Assembly (NCBI GenBank): GCA_964360815.1
Contig: CAYHYA010000002.1
Location: 1,371 to 65,370, forward strand
DNA: 64,000 nt
DNA from: an uncultured Candidatus Saccharibacteria bacterium
GTDB taxonomy: Bacteria > Patescibacteriota > Minisyncoccia > Phycocordibacterales > JACOZG01
Direction of reading: 5' to 3'
Positions 12,554 through 54,431 of the stretch are shown here, piece after piece (position 1 is the first letter of the stretch; each line of letters starts with the position of its first letter). The notes under the pieces are model-generated. The model was not told where the DNA came from. It did no database searches and saw only the letters and a list, made by a program, of their open reading frames with translations. A program made the translations under genes and the position numbers.

Positions 12554-13282
12554 TCAATAGCGGGGAATACCGGCAGTGGTTGTTTCGATGTTAATTTCTT
12601 GAAAATGGTCGGTTTGCCCGACCGCGACTGCCCCCTGTTTGCAGAGTTCAAGTAAAGCCAAAAAACCAACGATAATCTCTTTTTTGTCTTTTTTATTTCT
12701 GATAAACTCGCTGAAGTTGAGGCGGAGAGCAGTTTGAACGCGCGTGGCCAGATCGCGGATCATTTCTTCCAAACTAACAATTTTCTTTAGCACCACTTTC
12801 GGTAGAGGGCTGGTTGGTATTGGGAGAACCCGGATTAAATTTTTCATTGTGACCAAAAGATTGGCCACGGTAATTTCCGGCGTTGGCGAAAAAACCACTC
12901 GCTTGTCGGAACGAGGTAACGAGAAAAAAATTGGTCGTTGTCCGCAACGCTGGCTAATTCCCACGCTCGTTTCTCTGATCAACTGATAAATTTTCAGACG
13001 CTGTTCCAGGTCGGCCACTTCCCCACTCTCGGTTTCGGTTAAGGTGAGTGTGGGAAGCAGCGAGATTGACTTAATCAACATCAGGGTTGAAGCCACGGTT
13101 AAAAACTCGGCCAGTAAACCGAGCGACGGTTGATCGAGTTGTCTAACGTAATCAAGAAAATTATCCGCCACCGTTGCCAAAGAAACTTGGCTGATACTTA
13201 ATTTTCGTTTCTCTACTAAATCAAGGAGTAGCGGTAATGGGCCCTCGAACTCCCCCACCTGAACGGAAAAAGTTTCGGTCAT
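12554..13282 (-). CDS. scpA: Segregation and condensation protein A
   Basis: FEGPLPLLLDLVEKRKLSISQVSLATVADNFLDYV is the canonical ScpA N-terminus. Confidence 0.85.
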   Translation of the reverse strand: MTETFSVQVGEFEGPLPLLLDLVEKRKLSISQVSLATVADNFLDYVRQLDQPSLGLLAEFLTVASTLMLIKSISLLPTLTLTETESGEVADLEQRLKIYQLIRETSVGISQRCGQRPIFFSLPRSDKRVVFSPTPEITVANLLVTMKNLIRVLPIPTSPLPKVVLKKIVSLEEMIRDLATRVQTALRLNFSEFIRNKKDKKEIIVGFLALLELCKQGAVAVGQTDHFQEINIETTTAGIPRY

Positions 13283-14631
13283 GCTGGCGCGTTCATCATC
13301 AAGTCTCGTCCCTCACCAGTTTTCGGAAAAGCGATGACTTCGCGAATGTTTGGTTCGTTGCCAAGAAGACTGATTAACCGATCAAGTCCCCAGGCGATTC
13401 CGCCGTGCGGTGGCGCCCCAGCCGCGAGCGCTTGCAACATGTGGCCGAAGTTGTCGTCAATCGCGCGATCGCTGTGACCAAGAATCTTAAACACCGCCCG
13501 CAAGCCGTCAGGACGATGATTACGGATACTGCCCCCACCGATCTCGAGCCCGTTCAGAGTGATGTCGTATTGAGAAGTTAAAATTTGACCAAGGTTTTTT
13601 TGGTTGAGGAGATCTTCCAGCTGTTCCGGTTTGGGCGCGGAAAAAGGGTTATGGGTAAACGTCCACTTGCCGTTGTCCTCTTTCTCAAAAAACGGAAAGT
13701 CCACCACCCAACAGAAAGCCAGCAGATTTTTGTCAGTTTTTTCCTGATCGCTTCGAAGATCGGGGCGATCGCTTTCGTATTTGGCCATAGCCGCTTCGTA
13801 GGTTAGTCGCGGAAACGGAATTTGTTTGATGGTTTTTTCCGGAGTAATTTTTTTAACTATTTCGATTAACAACTTCTCGTTTAGCGCCATGACTTCTTCC
13901 TGTTCAACAAAAGCCATTTCGAGGTCGAGTTGGGTAAATTCCGGTTGGCGATCACCGCGCGTATCTTCATCCCGAAAACAGCGGGCCATTTGGAAATATT
14001 TTTCCACACCGGCCACCATCAAGAGTTGTTTATATTGTTGGGGTGACTGGGGCAGGGCATAAAATTTCCCTGGGTAAAGTCGTGCCGGGACGAGATAATC
14101 ACGGGCGCCTTCCGGCGTGGCCTTGGTCAGGATCGGCGTTTCAATTTCCAGAAAACCCTGTTCCGAGAGGTGGTCGCGAATGAAGCGAACTAATTGATGA
14201 CGCAAATTTAAATTCTTTTGCATTCTCGGTCGCCGAAGATCTAGATAGCGATATCGCAGACGGTTCTCCTCGTCCAGTTCGTAACCGGTTGTTCCCAAAT
14301 CAAACGGCGGGGTTGTGGCTTCATTCAACACTTGGAGAGCCGTGATTTCGAGCTCGATCGCGCCATTTGGCAGTTCTGGTTTGATCATTTTTTCCGGTCG
14401 GCGGTTGACTCGCCCGATCACTTCAAGCACCCATTCCGGTCGAACAGTTTCGGCCAAGCCGTGCGCGGCGGCGTGGCTCGGCAGGGCCACGGCTTGAACT
14501 TTGCCACTGGCGTCGCGAAGATCAATAAAAATAAGTTTGCCGTGATCGCGCCGCACGTCAACCCAGCCGGCCACCGTCACCGTTTCGCCAACTTTTTCCG
14601 TTAAATCTTTTATTGCGATTCGATTTTTCAT
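13279..14631 (-). CDS. aspS: Aspartyl-tRNA synthetase (bacterial-type core lacking the GAD insertion)
   Basis: Anticodon-binding OB N-terminus (GWVDVRRDHGKLIFIDLRD), QSPQQYKQLLM, class II motifs FRDE..., EIGGGSIR, GLDR; 450 aa. Confidence 0.85.
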   Translation of the reverse strand: MKNRIAIKDLTEKVGETVTVAGWVDVRRDHGKLIFIDLRDASGKVQAVALPSHAAAHGLAETVRPEWVLEVIGRVNRRPEKMIKPELPNGAIELEITALQVLNEATTPPFDLGTTGYELDEENRLRYRYLDLRRPRMQKNLNLRHQLVRFIRDHLSEQGFLEIETPILTKATPEGARDYLVPARLYPGKFYALPQSPQQYKQLLMVAGVEKYFQMARCFRDEDTRGDRQPEFTQLDLEMAFVEQEEVMALNEKLLIEIVKKITPEKTIKQIPFPRLTYEAAMAKYESDRPDLRSDQEKTDKNLLAFCWVVDFPFFEKEDNGKWTFTHNPFSAPKPEQLEDLLNQKNLGQILTSQYDITLNGLEIGGGSIRNHRPDGLRAVFKILGHSDRAIDDNFGHMLQALAAGAPPHGGIAWGLDRLISLLGNEPNIREVIAFPKTGEGRDLMMNAPA

Positions 14632-14637
14632 TTTTGT

Positions 14638-15615
14638 TTATAAGCTCACCCCGACTGCTTGGCGGATCTTAACCATCTTCTCTTGGGCTTGCGCCTTTGC
14701 TCGACTGGCACCGTCTTGCAAAACTTCCATTACCGCCTTCTGGTCTCGAGCGATGGCCAAACGTTTTTCACGCAGAGGCACCAAGTAATCATCCAGGTTT
14801 TTGAATAAAATTTCTTTTGATTCTTTATAACCAATTTGACCCGCGCGATAACGTTCGGCTAATTCGGCTAAATTTTTAACGGAAAAAAGTTTGTGTAACG
14901 CGAAAACATTGCACTGTTCCGGATCTTTGGCTTCATTCGCTTCTCGGGAATCGGTTTTGATGCTCATGATTAGTCGTTTCAATTCGGCCGGTTCGGAAAA
15001 AATCGGAATCGTATTGCCATAACTCTTAGACATTTTTTGGCCGTCTATTCCAATAATTGTTTTGGTTTGATCAATGATCAACGCTTCCGGTAACTGGAAA
15101 ATTTCACCAAATTTACGATTGAATTTTTCGGCCGTGTCGCGAGCAATTTCAACATGTTGTTTCTGGTCAAAACCGACCGGCACCACCGCGGCATCGTAAA
15201 GTAAAATATCGGCCGCCATTAACAAGGGGTAAGTAAAGACACCAACGCTAACTTCTTGATTTTTGGCCAGGGCATCTTTGTAGGCATGGGCGCGGGCGAG
15301 ATACGGCATGGTCGTCAGACAATTAAAAATCCAAGCCAATTCGGTGTGTTCCGGAATATTGGACTGTTGGAAAATGGTGGTGCGGGTTGGGTCGAGCCCA
15401 ATGGCTAAATAATCAATGGCGATATCTAAAATGTCCTGTCGCAAAACTTCCGGATCGCTGGCGTTAGTCAGCGCGTGATAGTCGGCAATCATGATGTATG
15501 ATTCGTAATCGTTCTGTAGGTCAACGAATTGCTTCATCGCGCCAAAATAATTACCAATATGTGGTCGGCCGGTTGGCTTAACTCCAGAAAGAAGGATTTT
15601 CGGCGAATTTAGCAT
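14638..15615 (-). CDS. trpS: Tryptophanyl-tRNA synthetase
   Basis: ILLSGVKPTGRPHIGNYFGA (HIGH) and KMSKSYGN. Start set at second ATG (MLNSPK...) to match canonical TrpRS N-terminal length; the ORF extends to 15651. Confidence 0.85.
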   Translation of the reverse strand: MLNSPKILLSGVKPTGRPHIGNYFGAMKQFVDLQNDYESYIMIADYHALTNASDPEVLRQDILDIAIDYLAIGLDPTRTTIFQQSNIPEHTELAWIFNCLTTMPYLARAHAYKDALAKNQEVSVGVFTYPLLMAADILLYDAAVVPVGFDQKQHVEIARDTAEKFNRKFGEIFQLPEALIIDQTKTIIGIDGQKMSKSYGNTIPIFSEPAELKRLIMSIKTDSREANEAKDPEQCNVFALHKLFSVKNLAELAERYRAGQIGYKESKEILFKNLDDYLVPLREKRLAIARDQKAVMEVLQDGASRAKAQAQEKMVKIRQAVGVSL

Positions 15616-15652
15616 CACTGAATCATAGCAAATCCTCTGTCGCGCCCTCATA

Positions 15653-15754: not shown

Positions 15755-16645
15755 ATGAGGTCAATCCTACTGTTCTTGGGGCTATGGTTTTTCGGGTTTC
15801 TGGGTCTAGCGGGGTGCGGGAACTTCCCTACCCCCGAGCAGTCCGAGTTGTCGGCGACAGCAGACGAGGCGGATGCGACTGGGGTAGTCAACAAAAGTAG
15901 GGATTTTATCTTGGCGCAAACTGGTGGTGGGAGTGGGAGCGGCGGAGGAGGAAGTAATGCCCCCACGCTTCACACCGTCAGCGCCTCGGTAAACTTTGAT
16001 CCGGTAGCTGGTCACGGTGATTTTTATCTTGGCGGCAAGACGATTGTCGTGGAAAGAATTAACAGTTACGTTAATTTTTATCCGGACAAGAGCCTGCCCC
16101 GGGACGTTGGCTATTTCGAGGCAACAATCGATCTGGAAGGATCCTTCATTCCGGCCGACGGAACTGTCACTGAGGCGATGGAAAAATTGTTGGACCTCTC
16201 GCTTTTTACCGATGGATTGGTATCTTTCGACCAGTATGGCCTAATGAGAATTCCTCCTGGGTGCGAAAACGGGGAAGAGTTCAATCTGATCACGGGCGAA
16301 AAGTGCCCATGGCAGGGATGGGAGATTGAACCACGAGCCCGTTTGAGTCAAAACGGATACGCTCGACTGAGTGGATATCAGTACGATGACCAGGAAGAGG
16401 TTCAGTATTTCAGCGACTCTTCTTTCCACGTTTACATAAACGGTGGGACAATCACATCTGTCTCCGTCAACGTTTATGTTCGGGAATGGGAAGAAGAAGA
16501 GGACGCCCCGGATTACTGGCTACCCATTCAAGTTTCCGCGAGTTTTCGTGGTGTCGTTACGTTGGAGTACGAGGAATACGATGGCGGAGACGGTGGCGGT
16601 GTTGGGATTGTCCCGCCGGTTGCTGTTCCGCCGGGTAATGGCTAA
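15755..16645 (+). CDS. Hypothetical lipoprotein (lipobox LAGC) with Gly-rich linker
   Basis: MRSILLFLGLWFFGFLGLAGC lipoprotein signal. GGGSGSGGGGS linker. Acidic C-terminal region. Strong RBS. Confidence 0.6.
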   Translation: MRSILLFLGLWFFGFLGLAGCGNFPTPEQSELSATADEADATGVVNKSRDFILAQTGGGSGSGGGGSNAPTLHTVSASVNFDPVAGHGDFYLGGKTIVVERINSYVNFYPDKSLPRDVGYFEATIDLEGSFIPADGTVTEAMEKLLDLSLFTDGLVSFDQYGLMRIPPGCENGEEFNLITGEKCPWQGWEIEPRARLSQNGYARLSGYQYDDQEEVQYFSDSSFHVYINGGTITSVSVNVYVREWEEEEDAPDYWLPIQVSASFRGVVTLEYEEYDGGDGGGVGIVPPVAVPPGNG

Positions 16646-16672
16646 CGAAGGGAGGTGATCTACTAGATCTAG

Positions 16673-16716
16673 CCCCGTGATTTGCATTTTTTGTGCAAAT
16701 CGCGGGGTTTTTCTTT
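16673..16716 (+). terminator. Rho-independent terminator
   Basis: ccccgtgatttgca-ttttt-tgcaaatcgcgggg stem followed by tttttcttt. Confidence 0.7.
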
Positions 16717-16741
16717 ACCCAAATCAGTTTTTTACACCCAC

Positions 16742-16770
16742 TTGACAAAAGAAACCGTTTAGTTTAGGAT
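16742..16770 (+). promoter_or_regulatory. Sigma70-like promoter TTGACA-17-TAGGAT
   Basis: Seen in sequence upstream of the PEP-CTERM gene; the leader ends in aaggagataaaaaATG. Confidence 0.45.
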
Positions 16771-16853
16771 GGTAAGTGAACTTAATTGCCATGCAGTTAA
16801 GCCCTGTTTGGAGTCAGACAGGGATTGATTTGGTCTTTGTAAGGAGATAAAAA

Positions 16854-17486
16854 ATGAAATGGCCAAAAGTTGTTGTCGTTGTGACAACGGTGCTTTCCGG
16901 AGTTGGGGAAGGAAGAGGCGGGAACATCGATGTGGTCACAAGTCAGTCTGAAAATCAGGCAACGGTTCATTTTTCTGGACCGATCAAGGTCGGGAATGTA
17001 CTGTTTGATCTTCAAGAGGGAGTGAATGAGAATCCGGTGCCGGGAGACATCGGTTGGTTTTCCGTTTCAATGATTGCGGCCGGATCATTCATTGACATTG
17101 AAAAAACGGGAGTTGTTGGCCATGGTGGGTCGTCAAGTGCCCGTCAAACCACTTACAACATCACCTCTCCTGATAATATAAATTTTTTCTTTGATCCGAT
17201 AAACACCCTGGTTACGGCCCAATGGTTGATCGGCGTTCTTGATGGCAATGTGCTTGTCACCGGAGGAATAATTAAGGATTCCTACGCCGAAATTATTGAA
17301 AACAACTGGCTTGGTCCAGGACCAAAACCCCCCTGGTTGGATCAGTGGACTGCATTCTGGCAAATTAATGGGAAGATTACTGCCCAGAATTTCAGCATCA
17401 CGGCTCTTCCCGAACCAGCCACGCTCGTCCTGTTCGCTCTTGGTGGAGTTTCCATCATTTGGAAAGGAAGACGTCTCCTGGTCTAA
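16854..17486 (+). CDS. Secreted protein with C-terminal PEP-CTERM sorting signal
   Basis: N-terminal signal-like hydrophobic stretch. C-terminus ITALPEPATLVLFALGGVSIIWKGRRLLV is the PEP motif, then TM helix, then basic cluster, the canonical exosortase substrate tail. Confidence 0.7.
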   Translation: MKWPKVVVVVTTVLSGVGEGRGGNIDVVTSQSENQATVHFSGPIKVGNVLFDLQEGVNENPVPGDIGWFSVSMIAAGSFIDIEKTGVVGHGGSSSARQTTYNITSPDNINFFFDPINTLVTAQWLIGVLDGNVLVTGGIIKDSYAEIIENNWLGPGPKPPWLDQWTAFWQINGKITAQNFSITALPEPATLVLFALGGVSIIWKGRRLLV

Positions 17487-17556
17487 GGTTTGACAATAGT
17501 TTTCCCCCGCCGAGACTTCGGTTATCATTGGGGAGATATCGCCGGAGTCAAAGCAG

Positions 17557-17596
17557 CCCCGTTGTAGTCGTGAGATTACGGCGGGGTCTTTTTTTA
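17557..17596. terminator. Bidirectional Rho-independent terminator between the convergent PEP-CTERM and histidine-kinase genes
   Basis: ccccg...cggcgggg stem followed by tcttttttt on plus; A-run upstream gives U-run on minus. Confidence 0.55.
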
Positions 17597-17604
17597 CTCG
17601 AACC

Positions 17605-19311
17605 CTACTTTTTCGATAATTCGACAATAAAACTACTCCCCTGCCCCGCACCGGCTGATTCAACCCAAATCCGACCATGGTGGGCCTCAACGATCTGTTT
17701 GGCCACATAGAGTCCGAGGCCGGTGCCGGTGATGTTGATCTTACCGGCGTCGTCAGCCCGAATAAATTTTTGAAAAAGTTTCGGAATCACTTCGGCTGGA
17801 ATCCCCACGCCATTATCGCTAACGCTTAAATGAATCTTCTGGTCAACCAAGTTCAAAGCAATCTTTATTTGACCCCTAGCTCCGCTCGTTGTTTGGGCCG
17901 GGGTATACTTGATCGCGTTATCAATTAAATTACCGACCACTTGTGATAACTTACCCGAGTCGCCAGTCAGTTTATAATCAACCGCTTGATCTATTTCCAA
18001 CAGGAATTGCAAGCCAGCTTTTTCCACGTTCACCCGCAATTCCCGGCCAACGCTCTCGACTAAATCTTTAAAATTAAATTCGCTCTGGTCATATTTCATG
18101 GTCCCGAGTTCAATCCGGGTAATGTTTAGGAAATCCTCAATCACCCGGACCAGTTTTTGGCTGGACTGGAAAATGATATCAACCGCCCCCCGGACGCGGT
18201 CGTCAATTTGACCGAAAGAATTTTCCAAAACCATCGAGGCATAACCCTTGATCGCCGTCAGTGGACTCCGCAGTTGATGGGTGGCCATAGAGACGAATTC
18301 GGTTTTCATTCGATCCAACTCCTTTAATTTCTCATTGGCCGTCCAGAGTTTGTCATTTGACTTGCCAAGCTCTTGCAACAACCCCTCAATTCGTTCACGT
18401 TGATTAACCTCTTTTTTTACACTCCTGATTAAGATGAGACCAAAAAGTACGGCAATGGTTTCCGTTGCGGCAACAACGATTTTTGTTAGATTGGATTGGA
18501 CAACAAAAATTAACGATCCGATCATTATCCACAACACAATTACCAACGCTTGCGCTCCAAGTACCCGAATGTTGAAGGTTTTATAGCGTACGATCATATA
18601 GCTCAAAAACCCAAGAAATGACAGCAGACCCAACGAGCCAATGAAACTAATTTCTTGTATTTCAAAAATCTCTCCAAAGACGTTAGACAAAGCAAAAAGA
18701 ACAAGGAACGACACTACCCCGATACCAGCATGAAGAATGCGTGCCAGATATTCATCATTTTGAGCCATGTTATTATAACGCTTTAAACATAGTCCAATAA
18801 TCCAAGCTATTGTGATGAACTCAAAAATATACATCAAGTCCCACATAGGACCCAAAACCCCCTCACAGGTTGTTATGTTGTAGGAAACAACATTGTACTT
18901 CGTGGGTAAAAAAATAAAAACCATTCCCATTATAAAAAAAGATACTATTTTTAATTTCTTATTCATAGGTTGAACACCCTCTTTTCTTGTGAAAATCTCT
19001 ATGAAATAAATCGCCAAAAGAAACACCGGCACTTCTAGTGCCGGTGTTATTTGCCAACCAAACATTATGGCGTCGTTGTATGCAGCTACCCACAAAATAA
19101 ATATGTCCAAAACCCAAAGGGAAAAAAACAATGTTATATAAAATAATGTTCTACTAATTACTGACCCCCTGTCTTTTATGAGAACAAAAATACCAAGAAA
19201 TAAAGAAATTATTATTGTTGGTACGTAAGTATAAAATAATAATCTTGGAGCGATTGATAAATCGAAAAAATTTAAAAAGCTCGGTAATGAGTCCGGGCAC
19301 AATATTTCCAT
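17605..19311 (-). CDS. Sensor histidine kinase with large N-terminal multi-TM sensor domain
   Basis: About 300-aa AT-rich N-terminal region with about 7-8 TM helices. HisKA H-box SMATHQLRSPLTAIKGY. HATPase_c N, G1 (DNGVGIP) and G2 (GTGLGLYVAKQIVEAHHGRIWVES) boxes. Confidence 0.85.
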   Translation of the reverse strand: MEILCPDSLPSFLNFFDLSIAPRLLFYTYVPTIIISLFLGIFVLIKDRGSVISRTLFYITLFFSLWVLDIFILWVAAYNDAIMFGWQITPALEVPVFLLAIYFIEIFTRKEGVQPMNKKLKIVSFFIMGMVFIFLPTKYNVVSYNITTCEGVLGPMWDLMYIFEFITIAWIIGLCLKRYNNMAQNDEYLARILHAGIGVVSFLVLFALSNVFGEIFEIQEISFIGSLGLLSFLGFLSYMIVRYKTFNIRVLGAQALVIVLWIMIGSLIFVVQSNLTKIVVAATETIAVLFGLILIRSVKKEVNQRERIEGLLQELGKSNDKLWTANEKLKELDRMKTEFVSMATHQLRSPLTAIKGYASMVLENSFGQIDDRVRGAVDIIFQSSQKLVRVIEDFLNITRIELGTMKYDQSEFNFKDLVESVGRELRVNVEKAGLQFLLEIDQAVDYKLTGDSGKLSQVVGNLIDNAIKYTPAQTTSGARGQIKIALNLVDQKIHLSVSDNGVGIPAEVIPKLFQKFIRADDAGKINITGTGLGLYVAKQIVEAHHGRIWVESAGAGQGSSFIVELSKK

Positions 19312-19326
19312 AGGAGTTATTATAGC

Positions 19327-20658
19327 CTATCTTAAAAATGGCCACCACGTAGATACGTAACCAAGTTTTTTGAGTTTACGCAAATTGTTTTTAATAAAAT
19401 TTAAGCCAATATCGTTGCGGTAGAACATCTTGGGTATGTAGATGAATTTTAAAGTATTTTCTATTTTCCGTCGTGCAGATTTGACACTCAATTCGACCGC
19501 AGTCACATACAGAACGTATCCCTGATCATCAGAGACATAATATTGTTTTTTTTTGTTATCGTTTTTAAGGGCTATCCCCTCAAAATAAACATGTTTAAAA
19601 TTTTTTCTTTCCAAAGATTTATTGAAATAAATGTTTACACCACGAGAGGAAAGATCTTTAAGTTTTTTAGCATAGGGAAACGGGGGAACTGTAACTAGAA
19701 CCACTATTCCGTAACCTCTTTTGTATTTTAACTTGAAATCTTGACCCATGGCGATTGCTTTTAAAAATTTTCCCCAAGAGGATTTATGAAGTTCCATTTG
19801 CAAATAAATAATTGGTGAACCAAAGCGAGGTGTTGCCTCAAGGGGGTAAGCACCAGTATCATTGACAATGCAATTGATTTCTATATCTCCTCGATAATTT
19901 ATTTTTTTAAGGTGTGGTTTTAATCTAGCAAGTGTTTCTCTGAATAACTTATTGTTCTCATTGTTTGAGTACCAAGCCAAAGTCCCCATTTCGCTAGTTG
20001 TTGGCCCAAGATCACCTGGAAAAAATTTCTTATGTTCTATGTTTAATTCTATAGGTCCTACCCAATCGTGACCATTAAAAAACCTGCCCACACCAATTTC
20101 GACACCCTCAATTCTCTGCTGAAGTGTTATTGTTCTAGTCTGCCATTTTGGTTTTAGGGAATAATTTTCTAGTAAATTTATAACATCGCGACTATCATCA
20201 AATCTGGCTACGTAATTTAAACTTTTCGAGGCCATGCCGTTTTGTTTTATTACCCAAGCACCGCTATTTTGTTTTATAAAGTATATGGCATCAGGAATAC
20301 TCTTGAAATCTTTTATTGGCACGGTCTTAATGCCACACTCAGCGAAAACTTCTTGTGCGTACTGTCTGTTAGATTCTAATTTATCTCCTTTAACACAGCC
20401 GCCAAAAACACAGAAACCATCTTTTCTTAATTCGTCTTGTTCTAAACCATACCCAACATCATCAAAAACAATAAGACCCTCTTTACCAACCCAGTCAATA
20501 TCTTTTTTCCAATCCGTCGTCTTTTCTACTAATCCATCGAAGTTTTCTTTTCGATCATCATCATCTATGAATAACCTGACCTCGTTGCCCTCGATTTTGA
20601 GTTGATAGGCCATATGTGTGGCAATCATATTATTGGAAGAGACAAAAAGAATTTTCAT
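19327..20658 (-). CDS. ATP-grasp enzyme, PurD (GAR synthetase)-like fold, function unknown
   Basis: EVFAECGIKTVP...AWVIKQNGMASKS resembles the PurD A/B-domain boundary (GIPTA...VIKADGLAAGKG) but lacks the G-rich N-loop. Very low GC. Confidence 0.45.
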   Translation of the reverse strand: MKILFVSSNNMIATHMAYQLKIEGNEVRLFIDDDDRKENFDGLVEKTTDWKKDIDWVGKEGLIVFDDVGYGLEQDELRKDGFCVFGGCVKGDKLESNRQYAQEVFAECGIKTVPIKDFKSIPDAIYFIKQNSGAWVIKQNGMASKSLNYVARFDDSRDVINLLENYSLKPKWQTRTITLQQRIEGVEIGVGRFFNGHDWVGPIELNIEHKKFFPGDLGPTTSEMGTLAWYSNNENNKLFRETLARLKPHLKKINYRGDIEINCIVNDTGAYPLEATPRFGSPIIYLQMELHKSSWGKFLKAIAMGQDFKLKYKRGYGIVVLVTVPPFPYAKKLKDLSSRGVNIYFNKSLERKNFKHVYFEGIALKNDNKKKQYYVSDDQGYVLYVTAVELSVKSARRKIENTLKFIYIPKMFYRNDIGLNFIKNNLRKLKKLGYVSTWWPFLR

Positions 20659-20805
20659 GATATAATCAAGTCGTGGACAAAAAATTAATTGTTGTCGAAA
20701 CCCTGTTGGTTATTCTGGCAGTTTTATCATTGTCCATAACTTTTTACAAAACAGTTATTCTGAGGGATTATCAGATTCTTGAAATACCGGAGTGATCATG
20801 ATTGA

Positions 20806-21213
20806 TTAATTGGTATCATTGTATTTTGTGCCTCTCTCAATGAAACACATCTCAATTTCTTTGGCTGAAAAATAATTTTGAATAAAATCTTTTAAATTTG
20901 TGGACGAGAAGTAGCGACAAGAATAAATATCGATTGAAATAAAATTCTTCAGACTTATTGTGTGTATCTGGACACCACTCTCTATGAGCGGTATCCAGCC
21001 GCTTAATCCTGCCTTATCCGGATATATGCTGGCGTCACTTTTAAATATGAATGGGGGGGATTGTTTTTTCATTTTTAACTCAATTACCATATCCTCAAGA
21101 AATTTATAGTTTAAATTTAAATCATCACAAACCCCACTCCTACAAGCATATAGATCAACGGCCAAAAGATAACCAAAAGGTTTTATTTCCGATTCTTTAG
21201 GAGTTTGTTCCAT
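20806..21213 (-). CDS. Pyruvoyl-dependent decarboxylase, class I S-adenosylmethionine decarboxylase (SpeH)-like
   Basis: GYLLAVDLYAC (compare GRHLVAEFYEC) and LSGWIPLIESGVQIHT (compare VSGVVVISESHLTIHTWPE) align to SpeH including the E-S self-cleavage site; 135 aa. Confidence 0.55.
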   Translation of the reverse strand: MEQTPKESEIKPFGYLLAVDLYACRSGVCDDLNLNYKFLEDMVIELKMKKQSPPFIFKSDASIYPDKAGLSGWIPLIESGVQIHTISLKNFISIDIYSCRYFSSTNLKDFIQNYFSAKEIEMCFIERGTKYNDTN

Positions 21214-21252
21214 GATGTTTTAAATATAGCACAAGTATTTAAATAAATCAAT

Positions 21253-22161
21253 TTATCCCAACCAGTAACCACCCAGGACGACCAGGCCGATACCGACTAG
21301 TTTCTGAGTGATTATTTTGGGAGTGATAATTTCCTGACTGATCCGTGGGAAAAAGAGTGTTAGGCCCAATCCGATGATAAAAACAAAAAATGGTTGAAGG
21401 GAATTAGCCAAGAGAACCAAGGCTAGCGGGGCTAACAAACTGGCATATTGTATGATTCCGTCAGCGACAATAGTGATAGTTTCATTTAAAGAATTTAGGC
21501 CGAGGATTTTTGGACCGGAATTTTTTAGAACGTCAAAAAATTGTCGACGATAGTTAGTGATAAAAAGCAGAAATAATCCACCCAAAATTAGCTTACCAAT
21601 CAAAGACCAGAAAACCGACACCCAAAAACCTTCTGTTTGGGCAACTAATTTAAAAACAACACCACTTACAGCATAACCCAGAGAAGCTAGAAGCATCAAC
21701 CAAACTACCTCTTTTTTAAAACGTGGTCGAGGACCAACCAAATCGAAAGATAAAATCAAGGCCCCACACAAAATGATTAGTGAGGCATAAATTTGATGCT
21801 TGGTTAATTGTTCATTCAGCAAGAAATAACCTAGGATATAACCGAAAATCGGGACGGTCTGATAAAACGGGACGACAAAGGTCGCTTCATCTTTTTGGAT
21901 GGAGTAAAAATAACAAAGTAGACTCATGACGACGATCGCGCCACTGAAGGAAAGCAACAATCCCTGACCCAGGGAAACAGACAACAGTGTTGGCTGGATA
22001 AGCCAAACCACCGGCAAGGCCACAACGGCAAAAACTGAAGAAAAAATAATCAGCGATCCGGCCTGATTATCGTGTAGGTGTTTAGAGATTAGATATTTGT
22101 CGATGTGGTTGGTCGTGGCATACAAGAGTGGGCTTAAAAAAACGACGAACAATTTGATCAT
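21253..22161 (-). CDS. EamA/DMT-superfamily transporter (10 TM)
   Basis: 302 aa, two tandem 5-TM halves with typical EamA hydropathy. Confidence 0.6.
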   Translation of the reverse strand: MIKLFVVFLSPLLYATTNHIDKYLISKHLHDNQAGSLIIFSSVFAVVALPVVWLIQPTLLSVSLGQGLLLSFSGAIVVMSLLCYFYSIQKDEATFVVPFYQTVPIFGYILGYFLLNEQLTKHQIYASLIILCGALILSFDLVGPRPRFKKEVVWLMLLASLGYAVSGVVFKLVAQTEGFWVSVFWSLIGKLILGGLFLLFITNYRRQFFDVLKNSGPKILGLNSLNETITIVADGIIQYASLLAPLALVLLANSLQPFFVFIIGLGLTLFFPRISQEIITPKIITQKLVGIGLVVLGGYWLG

Positions 22162-32759: not shown

Positions 32760-34379
32760 TTAGTCAAGCATGGCTTTAATTCGACGAATTCCTTGGGCCA
32801 CGGCTTCGTCTTTAAGAATTTTAAAACGCCCGAGTTCACCAGTGCGGGTGGCATGCGGCCCACCGCAAAATTCTTGGCTAAAAATATTCCCAGCGTGATC
32901 TTGAATAAAATAAACCGAAACAATCTCGCCGTATTTTTGTCCAAACTCCCTTTCGGCGCCCAGTTTCTCGGCTTCGGCTTTCGGCATTTCTCGTTTAACC
33001 ACCGTCAAGTTTTCTTGGATTTTCTGATTAACCAGCGCTTCAACTTTTTGGCGTTCATCGTCCGTTAGTTTACGCGAAAAAGAAAAATCTAATCGCAAAC
33101 GTTCTTGGTTAATATTTGATCCGCGCTGTTTAATTTCTTTGCCGAGAATTTGTTGCAGGGCGGCGAGAAGCAGATGGTGAGCGGTATGCAGTTTGATCGT
33201 TTGCGGTTCGTGGTCGGCTAAACCGCCGGCGAATTTCTGCTCCGTCCCCACCCGTGACACTTCTTGATGCCGTGCGAATTCTCGGTCAAACTCGGTTCGT
33301 TGCAGGTTTGGATAACGGTCTTTCATCACCTCAAACGGCAGACCGTATGTTTCGTAAAGCTTGAACGCCGTTCGCTCGTCTGGTGGCCCAACTTTTTCCA
33401 GTTCCTTAAGGCCGAGTTTGAGCGCCGCGCCAAACTGTTTGTTTTCCAATTCAACGATCCCGAAAATGTTTGTCTCGTGGAGTTCTGGATAACGCTCGTC
33501 GTATTTGGCAATCATCCAGTCGGTGGTTGATTTTAATTTCTCTAAATTAAATTTTACCAACAAGCGCCGAAGCAGTCGGCGCAAAATGTATCCGGCCCCC
33601 TTACTGTCTGGCCGGACGCCCTCGGCGATGAGGAAAGTGATCGCCCGCGCGTGGTCAGCGAGCACGCGCTCGTGGCCAAATTCTCCAAAGAGATCCGTAT
33701 CAAAAACATTTTTTTTACCTTGCACCACCATCGTCAATCGCTCAAGCCCCATACCGGTATCCACGCCGGGCGTTGCCAGTTTGGTTAATACTCCTTCTGC
33801 CGAAGAATAATATTCGTTGAAAACCAAATTCCAAATCTCGATTCCCTGAACATAAATTTCCGTTGTGGGACCGCATGGCCCGGAGGCGCCAGTTGGACCC
33901 CAAAAGTTATCGGCGCGGCCACATTCGCGGATATCTTTAATGCCAAGTTGTTGCCAAAATTTTCTTGATTCTTCGTCTTGGGCAACGCGATCATCGCCGC
34001 CAAAAATAGTGACATAATCAATTCTTAATCCCAGTTCTTGCGTGATGAATTCGTGGGCCAAAGCAATTGCCCGATCTTTAAAATAACCACCAAAAGAGAA
34101 GTTCCCGAGCATTTCAAAAAAAGTCAGATGGCGTTCGTCACCGATCTCATCAATGTCGGAGGTGCGGAAACATTTCTGAAGCGAGGTTAAATTCCGCGTG
34201 CCAAAATCCCGCTCGGCCGCTTCGGGTTGGAGATAATAATCTTTGAACGGCTGCATCCCGGCGGTGGTTAAAAGCACGGATGGGTCGCTCGGAATAAGGG
34301 ATGAGGACGGCACAATTTTGTGCTCGTGGACGGCAAAAAACTGGAGAAACTTAACCCTAATTTCTTCGCTCGTCAGCAT
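32760..34379 (-). CDS. alaS: Alanyl-tRNA synthetase, compact form (catalytic, tRNA-recognition and editing HxxxH/CxxxH regions; no C-Ala domain)
   Basis: MLTSEEIRVKFLQFFAVHEHKIVPSSSLIPSDPSVLLTTAGMQPF canonical AlaRS N-terminus. Later HTAHHLLLAAL and CGGPHATRTGELG editing-site motifs. Start set at the internal ATG matching the canonical N-terminus; the ORF-track start at 34565 adds a non-homologous extension. Confidence 0.85.
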   Translation of the reverse strand: MLTSEEIRVKFLQFFAVHEHKIVPSSSLIPSDPSVLLTTAGMQPFKDYYLQPEAAERDFGTRNLTSLQKCFRTSDIDEIGDERHLTFFEMLGNFSFGGYFKDRAIALAHEFITQELGLRIDYVTIFGGDDRVAQDEESRKFWQQLGIKDIRECGRADNFWGPTGASGPCGPTTEIYVQGIEIWNLVFNEYYSSAEGVLTKLATPGVDTGMGLERLTMVVQGKKNVFDTDLFGEFGHERVLADHARAITFLIAEGVRPDSKGAGYILRRLLRRLLVKFNLEKLKSTTDWMIAKYDERYPELHETNIFGIVELENKQFGAALKLGLKELEKVGPPDERTAFKLYETYGLPFEVMKDRYPNLQRTEFDREFARHQEVSRVGTEQKFAGGLADHEPQTIKLHTAHHLLLAALQQILGKEIKQRGSNINQERLRLDFSFSRKLTDDERQKVEALVNQKIQENLTVVKREMPKAEAEKLGAEREFGQKYGEIVSVYFIQDHAGNIFSQEFCGGPHATRTGELGRFKILKDEAVAQGIRRIKAMLD

Positions 34380-34465
34380 TCGAGAATCGTAACACGAAAT
34401 CCCGCCCAAAGAAAAAGCCCACGGATAACCGTGGGGCTTTGTTTGACCCGATGTTTTCTTGGTTT

Positions 34466-35014
34466 CTAACCCTCTGGTCCGTCTCGTTGACCAAGGAATC
34501 TCTCCACCAGGGGACATTTTGGAGCGAGGTATGATGTTGGGTTGTGAGGAAGGTTCTCGTTCCACGTTTTTGAAGTGATGTCTAAAAGCTCAACCGTTCT
34601 ACCAACCATCAAACTGCAAAATTCGTGAAAGAACAGGTGGCCTTCCCTCGGGACAACCAGAGTTTTTGTCTCTGCGTGCTGGTCAGTTTCTACCTCCAGA
34701 AGTCCGTGAACTTCCGTGGACTTTTTTACTTCCGTAATATCAATGGTGATCCCCGACAGTTCGACCAAGACTTTTTCCACCAACCAGGTCTTCCCGGAAA
34801 TCCTCATGGCTTCATCGTGAGCCGCGGGGTCATCGGGACAATCAGAAACAGCGTGCTGAACCAGATCTTTTGGTGCTATAAAACAAAAGACTGGAACAAG
34901 AACAATCACAGAAAAAAACAAACCGACCAAAATAATTTCCCAAATCGATCTTTTCACAACAAATTCTCCTTTCAAGAAGACGGTCTCGAGTTTCTCAAGG
35001 TTCACACGAACCAA
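34466..35014 (-). CDS. Hypothetical membrane protein
   Basis: N-terminal TM (IWEIILVGLFFSVIVLVPVFCFIA). No recognizable domain. Confidence 0.35.
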   Translation of the reverse strand: MVRVNLEKLETVFLKGEFVVKRSIWEIILVGLFFSVIVLVPVFCFIAPKDLVQHAVSDCPDDPAAHDEAMRISGKTWLVEKVLVELSGITIDITEVKKSTEVHGLLEVETDQHAETKTLVVPREGHLFFHEFCSLMVGRTVELLDITSKTWNENLPHNPTSYLAPKCPLVERFLGQRDGPEG

Positions 35015-38462: not shown

Positions 38463-39446
38463 TTATTTTGAAATTAAATTCAAAATGAGCTTTATTATTT
38501 TTCCTTTGTGTTCAGGATTGCTTTCAGCGACCATTATTGTAAGTGCGGTTAAAGCGGACGGAGTAAGTTTATTAACATTTAAAATATTTGCTTCTCTTAA
38601 AAACCACACGAATGCGAAAGCCCCGCTTCTTTTATTACCATCAATAAATGGATGATTTTTGACCATAAAATATAAGAGATAAGCCGCTTTTTCTTCGGCT
38701 GTCGGATAAAGTTCCTTGCCACCAAATGTCTGCATCACATTACCAATAATCCCAGAGATATTCCCTGTATTTCTTTCTATGCCGAAAATATCTGTTGCTT
38801 CTGATTTTTCTAAAAGATTTTGTTTTAATTGAATAAGATTTTTAGTAATTCTTTCCATCGTCAATTCAACTTTTTTCTTTGTCAGTTTTCCTTTCGGCAA
38901 AAGCTCTTTGTCATACGCATCAAGTGAAAGCCATGTGTCAGCAAAAAGTGATACGAGTTCAACGGCGTCAGACACATTCACCGCCGACCCCGAGGGAAGA
39001 AGTTTCTTTATGTCGTCAACCACGCCCAAGAACTGCGTGTAATTTTTTGCAATGCGTTTACGATTTATAGTGAAGCCCTTTACGATATGTTCCCGAAGCG
39101 TTTTAGTAGCCCACTGGCGAAACAGAGTAGCGGTCTTACTGTTTACTCTATATCCAACCGAAAGGATCATATCCAGGTTATAGTGCTTAATTTCACGCTC
39201 AATTTTGCGTTTTCCCTCATTTTGAACTATCCGGAAATTCCGGATAGTTGCATTTTCTGAAAGTTCTCCCGTTTTAAAAATGTTTTGGATGTGTTCGTTT
39301 ATTGTCCTTACATCAACACTAAAGGCTGTGGCTATCTGCGCTTGAGTCGCCCATACTGTCTCACGTGAAGTATCTCCACGAAGCTCGATGGCTCCATTTT
39401 TTGCCTGATAGATAACAATACTATTTTGTTCTTGCTTTTTTCCCAC
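38463..39446 (-). CDS. RhuM-domain / Fic-DOC family protein embedded in the type I RM operon
   Basis: N-terminal RhuM-like region. C-terminal HPFIDGNKRSGAFAF is the Fic motif HPFx[DE]GN[GK]R. Confidence 0.7.
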   Translation of the reverse strand: MGKKQEQNSIVIYQAKNGAIELRGDTSRETVWATQAQIATAFSVDVRTINEHIQNIFKTGELSENATIRNFRIVQNEGKRKIEREIKHYNLDMILSVGYRVNSKTATLFRQWATKTLREHIVKGFTINRKRIAKNYTQFLGVVDDIKKLLPSGSAVNVSDAVELVSLFADTWLSLDAYDKELLPKGKLTKKKVELTMERITKNLIQLKQNLLEKSEATDIFGIERNTGNISGIIGNVMQTFGGKELYPTAEEKAAYLLYFMVKNHPFIDGNKRSGAFAFVWFLREANILNVNKLTPSALTALTIMVAESNPEHKGKIIKLILNLISK

Positions 39447-39464
39447 AAAATTATTTATACCACA

Positions 39465-39995
39465 TTACAGCTCACCCGTAAATGCTTTGCTCAAGATCGA
39501 CTTCTTAAGTTCTTCCAAATCCGCCAGCTTCTGCTCGTATATTTCTTCTAGTTTTTTTGTTTCTGTTGAAAGGGCATCCAGCTTTTTCACAATCCGCTTT
39601 TGTTCGGATAGAATCGGAATATCGACCTCAATCGAATAGACCTCATTTCTATTCAATCCAGGCTTTACCCCTTTTGCTAATCTAGGTAGCTCCAGTGTTA
39701 TTAATAAGTCGTATAGAAATTTTAAATCGTATTTCCTTTCATCAAAGGTTACAAAATACGTGACATCAAGAGGCCAGAATTTTTCTTCCGTCAAATTTAA
39801 TTCGCCAGCGGAACCTTTACGACCAACTATTATGCTTGGCTTATTATAAAAATAGTCATTTGATCTTGTTTTCTCTCCATTGGCGCCATAGACAGGATAT
39901 TTTCCGCCCATGATTCGTTTTGATTTTGGTAATGGTTTCCCGTATTCCAACTTCAGAACATCACCAAGTTTTTTTGTTTGCCACTCAGTTTTCAT
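39465..39995 (-). CDS. hsdS: Type I restriction-modification specificity subunit, half-size (single target-recognition domain)
   Basis: MKTEWQTKKLGDVLKLEYGKPLPK typical HsdS TRD start, followed by a conserved coiled-coil region; about 176 aa. ORF-track start (40085) overlaps the OLD-like gene, so the internal ATG at 39995 was chosen. Confidence 0.7.
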   Translation of the reverse strand: MKTEWQTKKLGDVLKLEYGKPLPKSKRIMGGKYPVYGANGEKTRSNDYFYNKPSIIVGRKGSAGELNLTEEKFWPLDVTYFVTFDERKYDLKFLYDLLITLELPRLAKGVKPGLNRNEVYSIEVDIPILSEQKRIVKKLDALSTETKKLEEIYEQKLADLEELKKSILSKAFTGEL

Positions 39996-41781
39996 TGTTT
40001 TGTACCTCGTCGTTACTCTCATCGGCACAAAAATCTTCCAAAGTTTTAAATATTGGTTTAAAATTTTCGAAGGCTGATGGTCCAATTTTTATCGCTGCAT
40101 TTATTAACAGGTCTGTATCGCCTTTGGGGCAGATTTTCATTCCTCCTCCAGGAGTATTTTTTTCTTCAAAAAATTGTTCGAGACTGGTGACTCCATAAAA
40201 GAGGTGCTCCATCTCTAGTCTTGATTCACCCCCAAAATGATCTCCGGTCGCAGGGTTGATTACTTGCGCTTTTATTTTTGAATTATTTGATAATGGCAAT
40301 AATAATGCATAAAAATTACACTTCTTTTTTTTGAGAGTCAAACAGGTACCTATAGTATTTAACTTTTTTGTATAGTCATGATTAGTCAAACCATTCCATC
40401 TTTGAAAACCCTCTCCATCAAAATCAAATAATCCAAGAACGAATTGCTTTTCAAAAATCTCTGCATTTTCTAGTGCATAAGACACTCCTTGTGCATTGTT
40501 TTTCGCCTTTATTACGTAAGGATTAGATATACTTGGAAAAAGTAGCTTCCACGCTTCTTTTAGTACTCTTTCATCAGTTGGACCTTCAACGAACACAATC
40601 GGAGAATTTTCTAATTTTTTTAGATCTTCCAACTCCTGTGTTTGCTCATCTAGTTTTTTTATACTCAATGAGTAGTTTTTTTGAACCTCAAGAAATGATC
40701 CGTAGTTATAACCAAACACTTTTTCAAGATTGTTTGATTCGCTTATTTTATTAAAAATCGTATTCCCGGGTTTATCTTGATTTGAAATAAAAATAGAGTA
40801 GGCCTCGGGATTGTTTTGAGGGAATATGAAAGATGGTGAATGCGTAGAAAGAAAAATTTGTGCAGCTTTAGAATATTCGACAAATTTTACAAATAAATTA
40901 TCCGCTCTTAATGCTTCAAGCGCGTTCTCTGGCTCATCAATTCCCCAAATCCAATGATCGTCTTTTGCTTTCCTCGCCAACCAACCCAAAACTACTGGCA
41001 CAAAAAGACTTTTTATACCCTCGCCACGAGACGTGAATTTAATCTTATAGTCGTCTCTACTGCCACGAGTAATTGTCTCGGGCGTATCCTCAAACTGACT
41101 GTTAACTTCAAGACTTGACCAAAATGATTCCAAAGAAATGGGCAGAGTAACAGATGTATCCACTCCAGTAATATCCTGAAAATCCTTTGAAAAATCTTTT
41201 GTGGTCTTATCGATATTGGCATCGAGCTCGTCCTTTGCAGTAGTACTTAAAAACAACCCTTTGTTTCTGGCAGATAATTTCAAAATATATGAAAAAACCT
41301 CAGTACTCTTAAAAGCTGGAATATAAACAAATTTGATTGATTTCAGAAAAACAGAAAAAGATCTTTTTATTCCTTGGGAGGCTGTTCCTATATAATCGGG
41401 CTCTGTTTGTTCGTAGGTCTCAGTATAAGCCCACCACCTACGCTCAACCCATAAATCACCATTCTGATTGATGAGTTTTACAAGCTCATTCTTATTCCCC
41501 TTTATCTCATTTACATCAAAATAAATCTTGATGGATATAAACTGTCTTCCCTTTTTGCTCTCACGAGCTTTTACTTTCGATGACATTGAGAAATCATCAA
41601 AAAAGTTGAACTCCTCTAGAAACGAGGTCTGCCCATTGAAGAAGAGATTTAATGCTCTTAGGACATTTGATTTACCACTATCATTTTGGCCGCCGAATAT
41701 CACTATGTGATTCAGCTCTTCTATGGATTGATCAAAAATGGAGCGAAAATGCTTTATTTCAATTTTTTTAATTATTTTCAT
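39985..41781 (-). CDS. OLD-family (ABC-ATPase + Toprim) nuclease; alternatively GajA-like or fused PARIS AriA-AriB-like defense protein
   Basis: N-terminal Walker A FGGQNDSGKSNVLRAL of AAA_15/21 ABC ATPases. C-terminal Toprim signatures IVFVEGPTDERVL (invariant E) and LGLFDFDGEG (DxD). 598 aa, class 1 OLD size. ATGA start/stop overlap with hsdM. Confidence 0.55.
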   Translation of the reverse strand: MKIIKKIEIKHFRSIFDQSIEELNHIVIFGGQNDSGKSNVLRALNLFFNGQTSFLEEFNFFDDFSMSSKVKARESKKGRQFISIKIYFDVNEIKGNKNELVKLINQNGDLWVERRWWAYTETYEQTEPDYIGTASQGIKRSFSVFLKSIKFVYIPAFKSTEVFSYILKLSARNKGLFLSTTAKDELDANIDKTTKDFSKDFQDITGVDTSVTLPISLESFWSSLEVNSQFEDTPETITRGSRDDYKIKFTSRGEGIKSLFVPVVLGWLARKAKDDHWIWGIDEPENALEALRADNLFVKFVEYSKAAQIFLSTHSPSFIFPQNNPEAYSIFISNQDKPGNTIFNKISESNNLEKVFGYNYGSFLEVQKNYSLSIKKLDEQTQELEDLKKLENSPIVFVEGPTDERVLKEAWKLLFPSISNPYVIKAKNNAQGVSYALENAEIFEKQFVLGLFDFDGEGFQRWNGLTNHDYTKKLNTIGTCLTLKKKKCNFYALLLPLSNNSKIKAQVINPATGDHFGGESRLEMEHLFYGVTSLEQFFEEKNTPGGGMKICPKGDTDLLINAAIKIGPSAFENFKPIFKTLEDFCADESNDEVQNNEN

Positions 41782-54421: not shown

Positions 54422-54431
54422 CTTCTTATTT

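What the first reader, a model, noticed from the sequence alone, without database searches (positions are those of the whole stretch)
16742..19311. Canonical PEP-CTERM protein adjacent to a multi-TM sensor histidine kinase in a reduced genome
The 210-aa secreted protein ends in LPEPATLVLFALGGVSIIWKGRR, a textbook exosortase sorting tail. PEP-CTERM systems are usually tied to an exosortase and EPS loci and often to the PrsK/PrsR two-component system. Convergently adjacent is a histidine kinase with a large polytopic N-terminal domain (PrsK-like architecture). Presence in an apparently CPR-like genome is unusual.
Basis: partly seen in the sequence, partly recalled or inferred. Interest (0 to 1): 0.55.

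Follow-up and report, generated by a model that had tools for sequence, protein, structure and literature searches.

The report
PEP-CTERM surface-protein family in Patescibacteria
A small secreted protein in a groundwater ultra-small (CPR) bacterium carries a genuine, evolutionarily conserved PEP-CTERM sorting tail, a signal so far tied to double-membraned bacteria, but the neighbouring sensor kinase is an unrelated, common CPR kinase and not the PEP-CTERM regulator PrsK.

Summary
Window 16854-17486 (+) encodes a 210-aa protein ending LPEPATLVLFALGGVSIIWKGRRLLV. It narrowly passes both curated PEP-CTERM models. Window 17605-19311 (-) encodes a convergent 568-aa kinase with about nine membrane helices.

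The tail is not a coincidence. A full HMMER search found about 17 distant homologues (25-35% identity). The named ones are from Candidatus Vogelbacteria or Patescibacteria. P-E-P are the only invariant columns in the alignment.

The gene has native composition and its own promoter and terminator. In five related genomes it sits at the same position, beside trpS. The upstream 296-aa gene is a divergent paralogue that carries a lipoprotein box and no tail.

The PrsK reading fails. There is no TIGR02916 match, no GAF domain, no response regulator and no sigma-54 site. The kinase family is widespread in Patescibacteria that lack a PEP-CTERM gene nearby. Its membrane half lies in a low-GC block that is closest to a different lineage.

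I found no exosortase in the window or in the parts of about 140 kb of related CPR loci that I screened. The rest of the genome could not be searched, so the key question stays open. NCBI already annotates the protein as PEP-CTERM. I found no paper that discusses this system in CPR.

The parts
16742..16770 (+). Sigma-70-like promoter (TTGACA-17-TAGGAT) of the PEP-CTERM gene.
   Evidence: 10 of 12 consensus matches. It lies just downstream of the upstream gene's terminator (16671-16709). This is a consensus match only. The number of promoter-like sites in the region is no higher than in shuffled sequence.
16854..17486 (+). 210-aa secreted protein with a PEP-CTERM tail. Signal-peptide-like N-terminus MKWPKVVVVVTTVLSGVG, a beta-rich body of about 150 aa, PEP at 186-188, a TM helix at 189-203, then KGRR.
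   Evidence: ORF and AGGAG ribosome-binding site. PF07589 and TIGR02595 above their cut-offs. Homologue family with invariant PEP. AlphaFold model with a 6-sequence alignment: pLDDT 72.9, all-beta plus a C-terminal helix at 188-209. GC3 0.47, native composition.
17556..17587 (+). Terminator-like hairpin with a T-run, between the convergent PEP-CTERM and kinase genes.
   Evidence: 14-bp stem, 7 GC pairs, followed by CTTTTTTT.
15755..16645 (+). Divergent paralogue of the same family, 296 aa. It has an N-terminal lipoprotein box (LAGC) and no TM tail; it ends GIVPPVAVPPGNG.
   Evidence: A local HMM built from alignment A1 scores it 41.9 bits, E 2.5e-11, with HMM positions 47-213 aligned to residues 84-271. 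BLASTP against the 210-aa protein gives E 0.003. No Pfam or NCBIfam hit. It has its own terminator at 16671-16709.
17605..19311 (-). Sensor histidine kinase, 568 aa: about 9 TM helices, then HisKA and HATPase_c. It is not PrsK and is not part of the sorting signal. The gene is chimeric: codons 1-300 are low-GC and closest to another lineage.
14638..15651 (-). trpS (tryptophan-tRNA ligase). It is the conserved syntenic anchor, transcribed divergently from the family gene(s).
   Evidence: The same trpS / PEP-CTERM-gene arrangement occurs in L011, L012, L078 and L080.

Best explanation
The 210-aa ORF is a genuine, vertically inherited member of a small, fast-evolving family of cell-surface proteins. 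As far as these searches see, the family is confined to a clade of groundwater Patescibacteria (Vogelbacteria-like Parcubacteria).

Shown:
- The gene is native in composition and monocistronic.
- It is conserved beside trpS in related genomes.
- Every tailed member keeps the PEP / TM helix / Arg-Lys tripartite signal, while the rest of the protein diverges to 25-35% identity.

Inferred mechanism:
- The N-terminal signal peptide sends the protein through Sec.
- The C-terminal helix and basic cluster hold it in the cytoplasmic membrane, with the beta-rich domain outside.
- The invariant PEP is then read by an exosortase-family (or functionally equivalent) transpeptidase encoded elsewhere in the genome. 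That enzyme would cleave the tail and attach or release the domain at the cell surface.
- The upstream paralogue reaches the same surface by a lipoprotein anchor instead.

The adjacent histidine kinase is a common Patescibacteria kinase that shares the neighbourhood by descent. It is not a PrsK-type regulator of the system.
For: - The tail passes both curated models.
- The HMMER search of 1.84e9 representative proteins found 14 other proteins at E<=0.001. Twelve of them are family members, whose alignments run through the tail. A profile search added two more.
- P186, E187 and P188 are the only invariant columns in alignment A1. Further members also carry PEP tails.
- Named members are PEP-CTERM proteins of Candidatus Vogelbacteria or Patescibacteria.
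- The gene lies beside trpS inside the block murG-ftsW-mraY-...-aspS-trpS in L011, L012, L078 and L080. Tandem tailed paralogues occur in L035 and L038.
- GC3 matches the housekeeping genes.
- The gene has its own promoter, Shine-Dalgarno sequence and terminator.
- The AlphaFold model is all-beta with a C-terminal helix.
- The upstream gene is a family paralogue with a lipobox.
- Kinase: no PrsK match; a large family whose named members are from Patescibacteria; orthologous position without a PEP-CTERM gene in L008, L009 and L077.
Against: - I found no exosortase in the window. No ORF hit PF09721, and the only polytopic proteins are the kinase, EamA, FtsW and MraY.
- I found none in about 140 kb of related CPR loci either. 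That check covered precomputed Pfam hits on the called genes, plus direct scans of two unassigned membrane proteins. Polytopic ORFs in L077 were not screened.
- Only one tailed protein lies in 64 kb, against a median of 8 per genome in classical systems (PMC1569441).
- CPR bacteria are generally held to lack an outer membrane, which classical PEP-CTERM systems have. This rests on established knowledge and was not tested here.
- The HMM scores are only marginally above the cut-offs, and the basic cluster (KGRR) is weaker than in the homologues (RRRR).
- The signal peptide was judged by eye and by alignment only.
Confidence: 0.55

Rival explanations
1. The tail is only a C-terminal membrane anchor. 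These CPR genomes have no exosortase. PEP is kept for a structural reason (a helix cap or hinge at the membrane surface), or is left over from an ancestral transfer from a double-membraned bacterium.
For: No exosortase in the window or in the parts of the related loci that were screened. Only 1-2 copies at each locus examined. The upstream paralogue replaced the tail with a lipid anchor, so tethering may be the only requirement. Extended tail similarity to Armatimonadota and Planctomycetota PEP-CTERM proteins hints at an origin outside CPR.
Against: A plain anchor does not need three invariant residues in sequences that are otherwise 25-35% identical. Degenerate systems are expected to lose the motif. 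The flanking 'SGxITAxNFxIVPEPATL' is the most conserved stretch of the family.
Confidence: 0.3
2. The kinase and the PEP-CTERM gene form a functional PrsK-like sensing and regulation module.
For: A histidine kinase lies convergent to, or within two genes of, the family gene in four related genomes: the window, L012, L078 and L011. In L078 the arrangement is a polytopic protein, a 100-aa ORF, then a kinase with a weak GAF match.
Against: No TIGR02916 similarity in any of these sensor regions at E<=10. No response regulator, no sigma-54 site and no TPR protein. The four genomes are syntenic over 20-40 kb, so shared ancestry explains the proximity. L080, L035 and L038 have the family without a kinase. 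L008, L009 and L077 have the kinase without the family. The genes are convergent, each on its own side of a terminator-like hairpin. The sensor half in this genome lies in a block closest to another lineage.
Confidence: 0.07
3. Artefact: a chance motif on a spurious ORF, or contamination or mis-assembly from a Gram-negative organism.
For: HMM scores are close to the cut-offs. The word-indexed search found no homologue. Source contigs have only about 3x coverage.
Against: Four independent assemblies give the same gene and the same neighbours. Homologues lie at the same syntenic position in other CPR contigs. Composition is native. Ribosome-binding site, promoter and terminator are present.
Confidence: 0.03

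Closest known systems
PEP-CTERM / exosortase (EpsH, XrtA) protein-sorting system (Haft et al. 2006, PMC1569441; TIGR02595, PF07589)
   Same: C-terminal tripartite signal: invariant Pro-Glu-Pro, a hydrophobic helix and a basic cluster, within a few residues of the stop codon. N-terminal signal peptide. Body without known homology. Single-gene transcription unit after a sizeable intergenic region.
   Different: The host is a CPR/Patescibacteria genome, not a double-membraned EPS producer. Only one or two copies were seen per locus, against a median of 8 per genome. The gene is embedded in housekeeping synteny beside trpS, not in an EPS locus. No exosortase has been found yet. The promoter is sigma-70-like rather than sigma-54. 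Some members have an extra conserved ...ERNPIG end after the Arg cluster.
PrsK/PrsR/PrsT regulatory set of proteobacterial PEP-CTERM systems (TIGR02916, TIGR02915)
   Same: A polytopic membrane histidine kinase near a PEP-CTERM gene.
   Different: No sequence similarity to TIGR02916, no GAF domain, no sigma-54-dependent regulator, no TPR protein and no sigma-54 site. According to Haft 2006 the PrsK set is confined to Proteobacteria. Here the kinase is of the type common in Patescibacteria; orthologues carry HisKA_7TM (PF16927).
LPXTG / sortase and PGF-CTERM / archaeosortase A systems of single-membrane cells
   Same: The same logic of motif, TM helix and basic tail at the C-terminus of surface proteins in cells without an outer membrane. 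A plausible functional analogue for a CPR cell.
   Different: The motif here is PEP, not LPXTG or PGF. No sortase or archaeosortase gene is in the window. What the protein would be attached to is unknown.
Bacterial lipoproteins (Lgt/LspA pathway)
   Same: The upstream paralogue carries an LAGC lipobox after a hydrophobic signal sequence, which is an alternative way to tether the same domain.
   Different: This applies to the paralogue at 15755-16645 only. The 210-aa protein has no lipobox.

Membership tests
PEP-CTERM sorting domain (TIGR02595 / PF07589) | Score at or above the curated HMM cut-off | tested here: met
   PF07589: 21.9 bits against 20.7. TIGR02595: 17.4 bits against 16. Both passes are marginal.
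PEP-CTERM sorting domain (TIGR02595 / PF07589) | Pro-Glu-Pro, then a hydrophobic helix of about 13-15 residues, then a basic cluster, ending within about 9 residues of the C-terminus | tested here: met
   PEP at 186-188, ATLVLFALGGVSIIW at 189-203, KGRR at 204-207, stop after residue 210. The AlphaFold model shows a helix at 188-209.
PEP-CTERM sorting domain (TIGR02595 / PF07589) | Motif conserved among homologues (under selection, not chance) | tested here: met
   PEP are the only invariant columns in 14 sequences. The motif is also present in P0137, P0138 and the upstream paralogues of L035 and L038.
PEP-CTERM sorting domain (TIGR02595 / PF07589) | N-terminal signal peptide | tested here: inconclusive
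   No signal-peptide predictor was available. MKWPK plus a 12-residue hydrophobic run aligns with the clearer signal peptides of the homologues, which end ...AQAG.
PEP-CTERM / exosortase system | A cognate exosortase (EpsH/Xrt family; PF09721, TIGR02602, TIGR04178) in the same genome | not testable with these tools
   Only 64 kb of the genome is available. None in the window, and none among the proteins screened in about 140 kb of related CPR loci. The complete MAGs could not be fetched.
PEP-CTERM / exosortase system | Several PEP-CTERM proteins per genome (more than 2 in Haft 2006; median 8) | tested here: inconclusive
   One tail in a six-frame scan of the window. One or two per related locus. 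The rest of the genomes was not seen.
PEP-CTERM / exosortase system | Host with an outer membrane and an EPS biosynthesis locus | not testable with these tools
   No EPS genes or outer-membrane biogenesis genes in the window. That CPR bacteria lack an outer membrane is general knowledge, not tested here.
PrsK, PEP-CTERM system histidine kinase (TIGR02916) | Match to TIGR02916 across the membrane/GAF/kinase architecture | tested here: not met
   Not among the 25 best NCBIfam models, all of which scored at least 102 bits on the catalytic half only. Residues 1-330 alone give no NCBIfam hit at E<=10. The same holds for the sensor regions of the kinases in L011, L012 and L078.
PrsK, PEP-CTERM system histidine kinase (TIGR02916) | Partner genes PrsR (sigma-54-dependent response regulator) and PrsT (TPR protein), and a sigma-54 site upstream of PEP-CTERM genes | tested here: not met
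   No Response_reg, Sigma54 or TPR hit in any of the 60 window ORFs scanned against Pfam. No TGGCAC-N5-TTGCW match on the + strand in the 16646-16853 intergenic region at up to 2 mismatches.
HisKA_7TM-type Patescibacteria sensor kinases (PF16927 + PF00512 + PF02518) | Full-length homology to the family, plus HisKA and HATPase_c | tested here: met
   3015 hits at E<=1e-10; most of the 120 listed cover about 99% of the query at 40-56% identity. HisKA and HATPase_c are present. PF16927 itself is detected in orthologues (P0068, P0090) but not in this protein's replaced N-half.

The most novel reading that the evidence does not exclude
A clade of Patescibacteria, organisms thought to have a single membrane and no EPS machinery, runs a minimal PEP-CTERM sorting pathway. 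It would have a dedicated and so far undescribed exosortase-like enzyme (or a non-homologous one) and one or two fast-evolving surface proteins encoded beside trpS. These proteins might be used for attachment to host cells. That would extend exosortase-type sorting beyond double-membraned bacteria and give a tractable surface marker for episymbiosis.
Probability: 0.35. Interest if true: 0.7.

Novelty: new member of a known kind. Interest (0 to 1): 0.45.

Why it matters
PEP-CTERM/exosortase sorting was defined as a trait of bacteria with an outer membrane and exopolysaccharide production. Here a family keeps the motif invariant and is inherited vertically at one fixed chromosomal position in a clade of CPR bacteria. 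That points to one of three things: these cells carry an unrecognised exosortase-type enzyme, their envelope is not what is assumed, or the motif has a second function. CPR surface proteins are prime candidates for host attachment, and almost none have been characterised. The practical correction is that the kinase next door should not be annotated or interpreted as PrsK.

Tried and rejected
- The word-indexed homologue search with the 210-aa protein returned only the protein itself. The full HMMER search was needed to find the family.
- A profile search with A1 was swamped by generic PEP-CTERM words and gave only 5 hits.
- A genome-contig scan with A1 failed because it had no conserved stretch. 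With A2 it gave one true family locus (L012) and 22 tail-only matches in Armatimonadota, Planctomycetota, Verrucomicrobiae and Anaerolineales.
- The metagenome scan gave almost only tail-only matches.
- I looked for exosortase seeds among polytopic ORFs near those non-CPR PEP-CTERM genes. They turned out to be RodA, permeases and MraY-like proteins.
- I tested the unassigned 281-aa polytopic protein next to the L078 kinase as a possible exosortase or PrsK N-domain. It has no Pfam or NCBIfam hit.
- The single-sequence AlphaFold model was useless (pLDDT 39.6). The 6-sequence model (pLDDT 72.9) had no significant Foldseek match in the PDB (best E 0.015, TM below 0.2).
- An Rfam scan of the window found nothing.
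- Literature searches for exosortase or PEP-CTERM together with CPR, Patescibacteria or Parcubacteria found nothing relevant.
- I first took the low-GC block to mean that the whole kinase was a foreign island. Synteny and the per-gene identities show instead a replacement within a conserved block, with one junction inside the kinase gene.
Full report
**1. What is there**

Window 16854-17486 (+) encodes a 210-aa protein. No in-frame start lies further upstream. An AGGAG ribosome-binding site sits 5 nt before the ATG.

The gene lies between two hairpin-plus-T-run terminators, at 16671-16709 and 17556-17587. It is therefore its own transcription unit.

The protein ends ...ITALPEPATLVLFALGGVSIIWKGRRLLV. 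It scores 21.9 bits against PF07589 (cut-off 20.7) and 17.4 bits against TIGR02595 (cut-off 16). Both passes are marginal. A six-frame scan found no other PEP-type tail in the 64 kb.

Convergent with it, 17605-19311 (-) encodes a 568-aa histidine kinase. It has about nine hydrophobic helices in residues 1-300, followed by HisKA and HATPase_c.

**2. Where it comes from**

The protein is NCBI MEK7552490.1, 'MAG: PEP-CTERM sorting domain-containing protein [Patescibacteria group bacterium]'. Four independent assemblies carry the same gene with the same neighbours. All are from Hainich groundwater well H51, 0.1-um filter fraction (study PMC8672522).

The rest of the window is typical reduced-genome housekeeping. 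It holds dnaK-dnaJ-grpE, ribosomal proteins, rpoA, murG-ftsW-mraY, scpAB and short aminoacyl-tRNA synthetases.

**3. The tail is not a coincidence**

The word-indexed search found only the protein itself. A full HMMER search of 1.84 billion representative proteins found 14 other proteins at E<=0.001. The best is P0122 (E 3e-14, 35% identity, full length). Twelve of the fourteen are family members.

The full-length members are 229-263 aa with a signal peptide, and three are shorter fragments. All share ...NEWTGxGPPPxWF...SGxITAxNFxIVPEPATL...RRRR.

In the 14-sequence alignment the only invariant columns are P186, E187 and P188. Further members also carry PEP tails: P0137, P0138 and the upstream paralogues in L035 and L038. 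The named members are PEP-CTERM proteins of Candidatus Vogelbacteria and 'Patescibacteria group bacterium'.

**4. Conserved position**

In L011, L012, L078 and L080 the family gene sits next to trpS and is transcribed divergently from it. It lies inside the same block as in the window: murG-ftsW-mraY-S11 peptidase-scpB-scpA-aspS-trpS.

A second clade (L035-L038) has two tandem tailed paralogues between yebC/ruvC and ruvB.

The window gene has native composition (GC3 0.47, against about 0.5 for housekeeping genes). It is an inherited gene of this lineage, not a contaminant or a recent import.

**5. The upstream gene is a paralogue**

The 296-aa ORF at 15755-16645 matches a local HMM built from the family at 41.9 bits, E 2.5e-11. 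HMM positions 47-213 align to residues 84-271.

It has a lipoprotein box (LAGC) after its signal sequence and no TM tail; it ends GIVPPVAVPPGNG. The same domain is thus apparently tethered in two different ways.

**6. Fold**

With a 6-sequence alignment AlphaFold gives pLDDT 72.9 and pTM 0.61. The model is an all-beta body of long hairpins plus a C-terminal helix at 188-209. Foldseek against the PDB gives nothing significant. Pfam and NCBIfam have no model for the body.

**7. The kinase is not PrsK**

- TIGR02916 is not among the 25 best NCBIfam models for the full protein. All 25 match the catalytic half only.
- Residues 1-330 alone give no NCBIfam hit at E<=10 and nothing meaningful in Pfam.
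- The window has no GAF domain, response regulator, sigma-54 factor or TPR protein. No sigma-54 promoter lies upstream of the PEP-CTERM gene.
- Haft et al. 2006 tie PrsK/PrsR/PrsT to the sigma-54 upstream site shared by proteobacterial PEP-CTERM genes (PMC1569441).
- The kinase belongs to a family of more than 3000 proteins; the named ones are from Patescibacteria. Most of the 120 listed cover about 99% of the query at 40-56% identity, and some carry HisKA_7TM.
- In L008 and L009 the orthologue sits in dnaK-dnaJ-...-EamA-AdoMetDC-ATP-grasp-HK-...-trpS with no family gene. L077 has the kinase without the family. L080, L035 and L038 have the family without a kinase.
- A kinase is close to the family gene in the window, L012, L078 and L011. 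These four are syntenic over tens of kilobases, so descent explains the proximity. Their sensor regions show no TIGR02916 similarity either.

**8. The kinase gene is chimeric**

GC3 drops from 0.53 (codons 301-568) to 0.37 (codons 1-300). It stays at 0.31-0.43 through the ATP-grasp, AdoMetDC-like and EamA genes.

The catalytic half and the surrounding housekeeping genes are closest to the high-GC relatives L011, L012 and L078 (63-77% identity). The sensor half and the three downstream genes are closest to the low-GC Parcubacteria loci L008 and L009 (57-70%).

It is not an old partner of the PEP-CTERM gene.

**9. The open point: the sorting enzyme**

No ORF in the window hits an exosortase model. 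The only polytopic proteins are the kinase, EamA, FtsW and MraY.

I found none in about 140 kb of related CPR loci either. That check rests on precomputed Pfam hits for the called genes, plus direct scans of two unassigned membrane proteins.

The complete MAGs could not be retrieved with these tools, so the defining co-occurrence test remains undone. I found no paper that discusses exosortase or PEP-CTERM in CPR bacteria.

**10. Verdict**

The PrsK inference is rejected.

The most likely mechanism is Sec export, C-terminal membrane retention, and recognition of the invariant PEP by a still-unlocated exosortase-type enzyme. The plain membrane-anchor reading is the main rival.

The tail itself is already annotated by NCBI. 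The new points are the family, its fixed position beside trpS, the lipoprotein paralogue and the chimeric kinase. Interest is moderate. It would rise substantially if a cognate enzyme were found in these genomes.

Noticed in passing
window 18400-21900: A low-GC block (GC3 0.31-0.43, against about 0.5 elsewhere) covers the kinase's membrane half, a PurD-like ATP-grasp gene, an AdoMet-decarboxylase-like gene and an EamA transporter. These genes are closest to low-GC Parcubacteria (L008, L009), while the flanking genes and the kinase catalytic half are closest to high-GC relatives. This looks like a homologous block replacement with one junction inside the kinase gene, which makes the kinase chimeric.
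   Followed up: partly
window 19327-22161; L008 3200-7659; L009 1088-5547; L010 2139-4404: EamA, an AdoMetDC-like gene, a PurD-like ATP-grasp gene and the kinase form a gene cluster conserved in L008 and L009. L010 keeps the ATP-grasp gene, EamA and the kinase nearby but shows no AdoMetDC hit. The ATP-grasp protein scores far below the purD cut-off (109 against 288 bits). This may be a small unknown biosynthesis or export module.
   Followed up: no
window 38463-41781: A low-GC insert sits between hsdR and hsdM of a type I restriction-modification system. It contains a RhuM/Fic protein, HsdS and a 598-aa AAA_15/AAA_21 ATPase.
   Followed up: no
window 52727-60528: A low-GC island holds small N-terminally anchored paralogues. 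Three of them (54432-55328, 56411-57211, 59734-60528) end in the identical C-terminus YYLWKEVAETSPEFKELF[K/R]. Two of those three, plus a fourth paralogue at 55611-56390, have FG-GAP repeat hits. The island also holds an SLT transglycosylase and is followed by a 1164-aa transglutaminase-like protein.
   Followed up: no
P0122, P0124, P0128, P0133, P0135 (family members in related CPR contigs): Several family members carry a short conserved extension after the Arg cluster at the very C-terminus (..RLERNPIG, RLEHNPIG, RLRLNPIG, ERNRVA, ERNLIA). As far as I recall this is not part of the standard PEP-CTERM domain. The window protein lacks it.
   Followed up: no
L078 11149-13686: In this relative, the kinase next to the family gene is split. 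A 281-aa polytopic protein with no family hit is followed by a 100-aa ORF and a 449-aa soluble kinase with a weak GAF match.
   Followed up: partly
L080 10933-11535: A 200-aa gene immediately after the family gene has a type II secretion pseudopilin-like N-terminus (TIGR01710, E 7.6e-6). A surface-filament protein thus sits next to the PEP-CTERM protein.
   Followed up: no
L013-L034 (Armatimonadota, Planctomycetota, Verrucomicrobiae, Anaerolineales): PEP-CTERM proteins of these phyla match the CPR family beyond the 24-residue tail; some alignments cover up to about 50 residues upstream of and including the NFxIVPEPA motif. This hints at where the CPR tail module came from.
   Followed up: no
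window 13279-14631, 32760-34565, 46991-49159: The aminoacyl-tRNA synthetases look short for their families: AspRS 450 aa (matched in two stretches, so the insertion domain appears to be missing), AlaRS 601 aa and LeuRS 722 aa. This is consistent with a reduced CPR genome.
   Followed up: no
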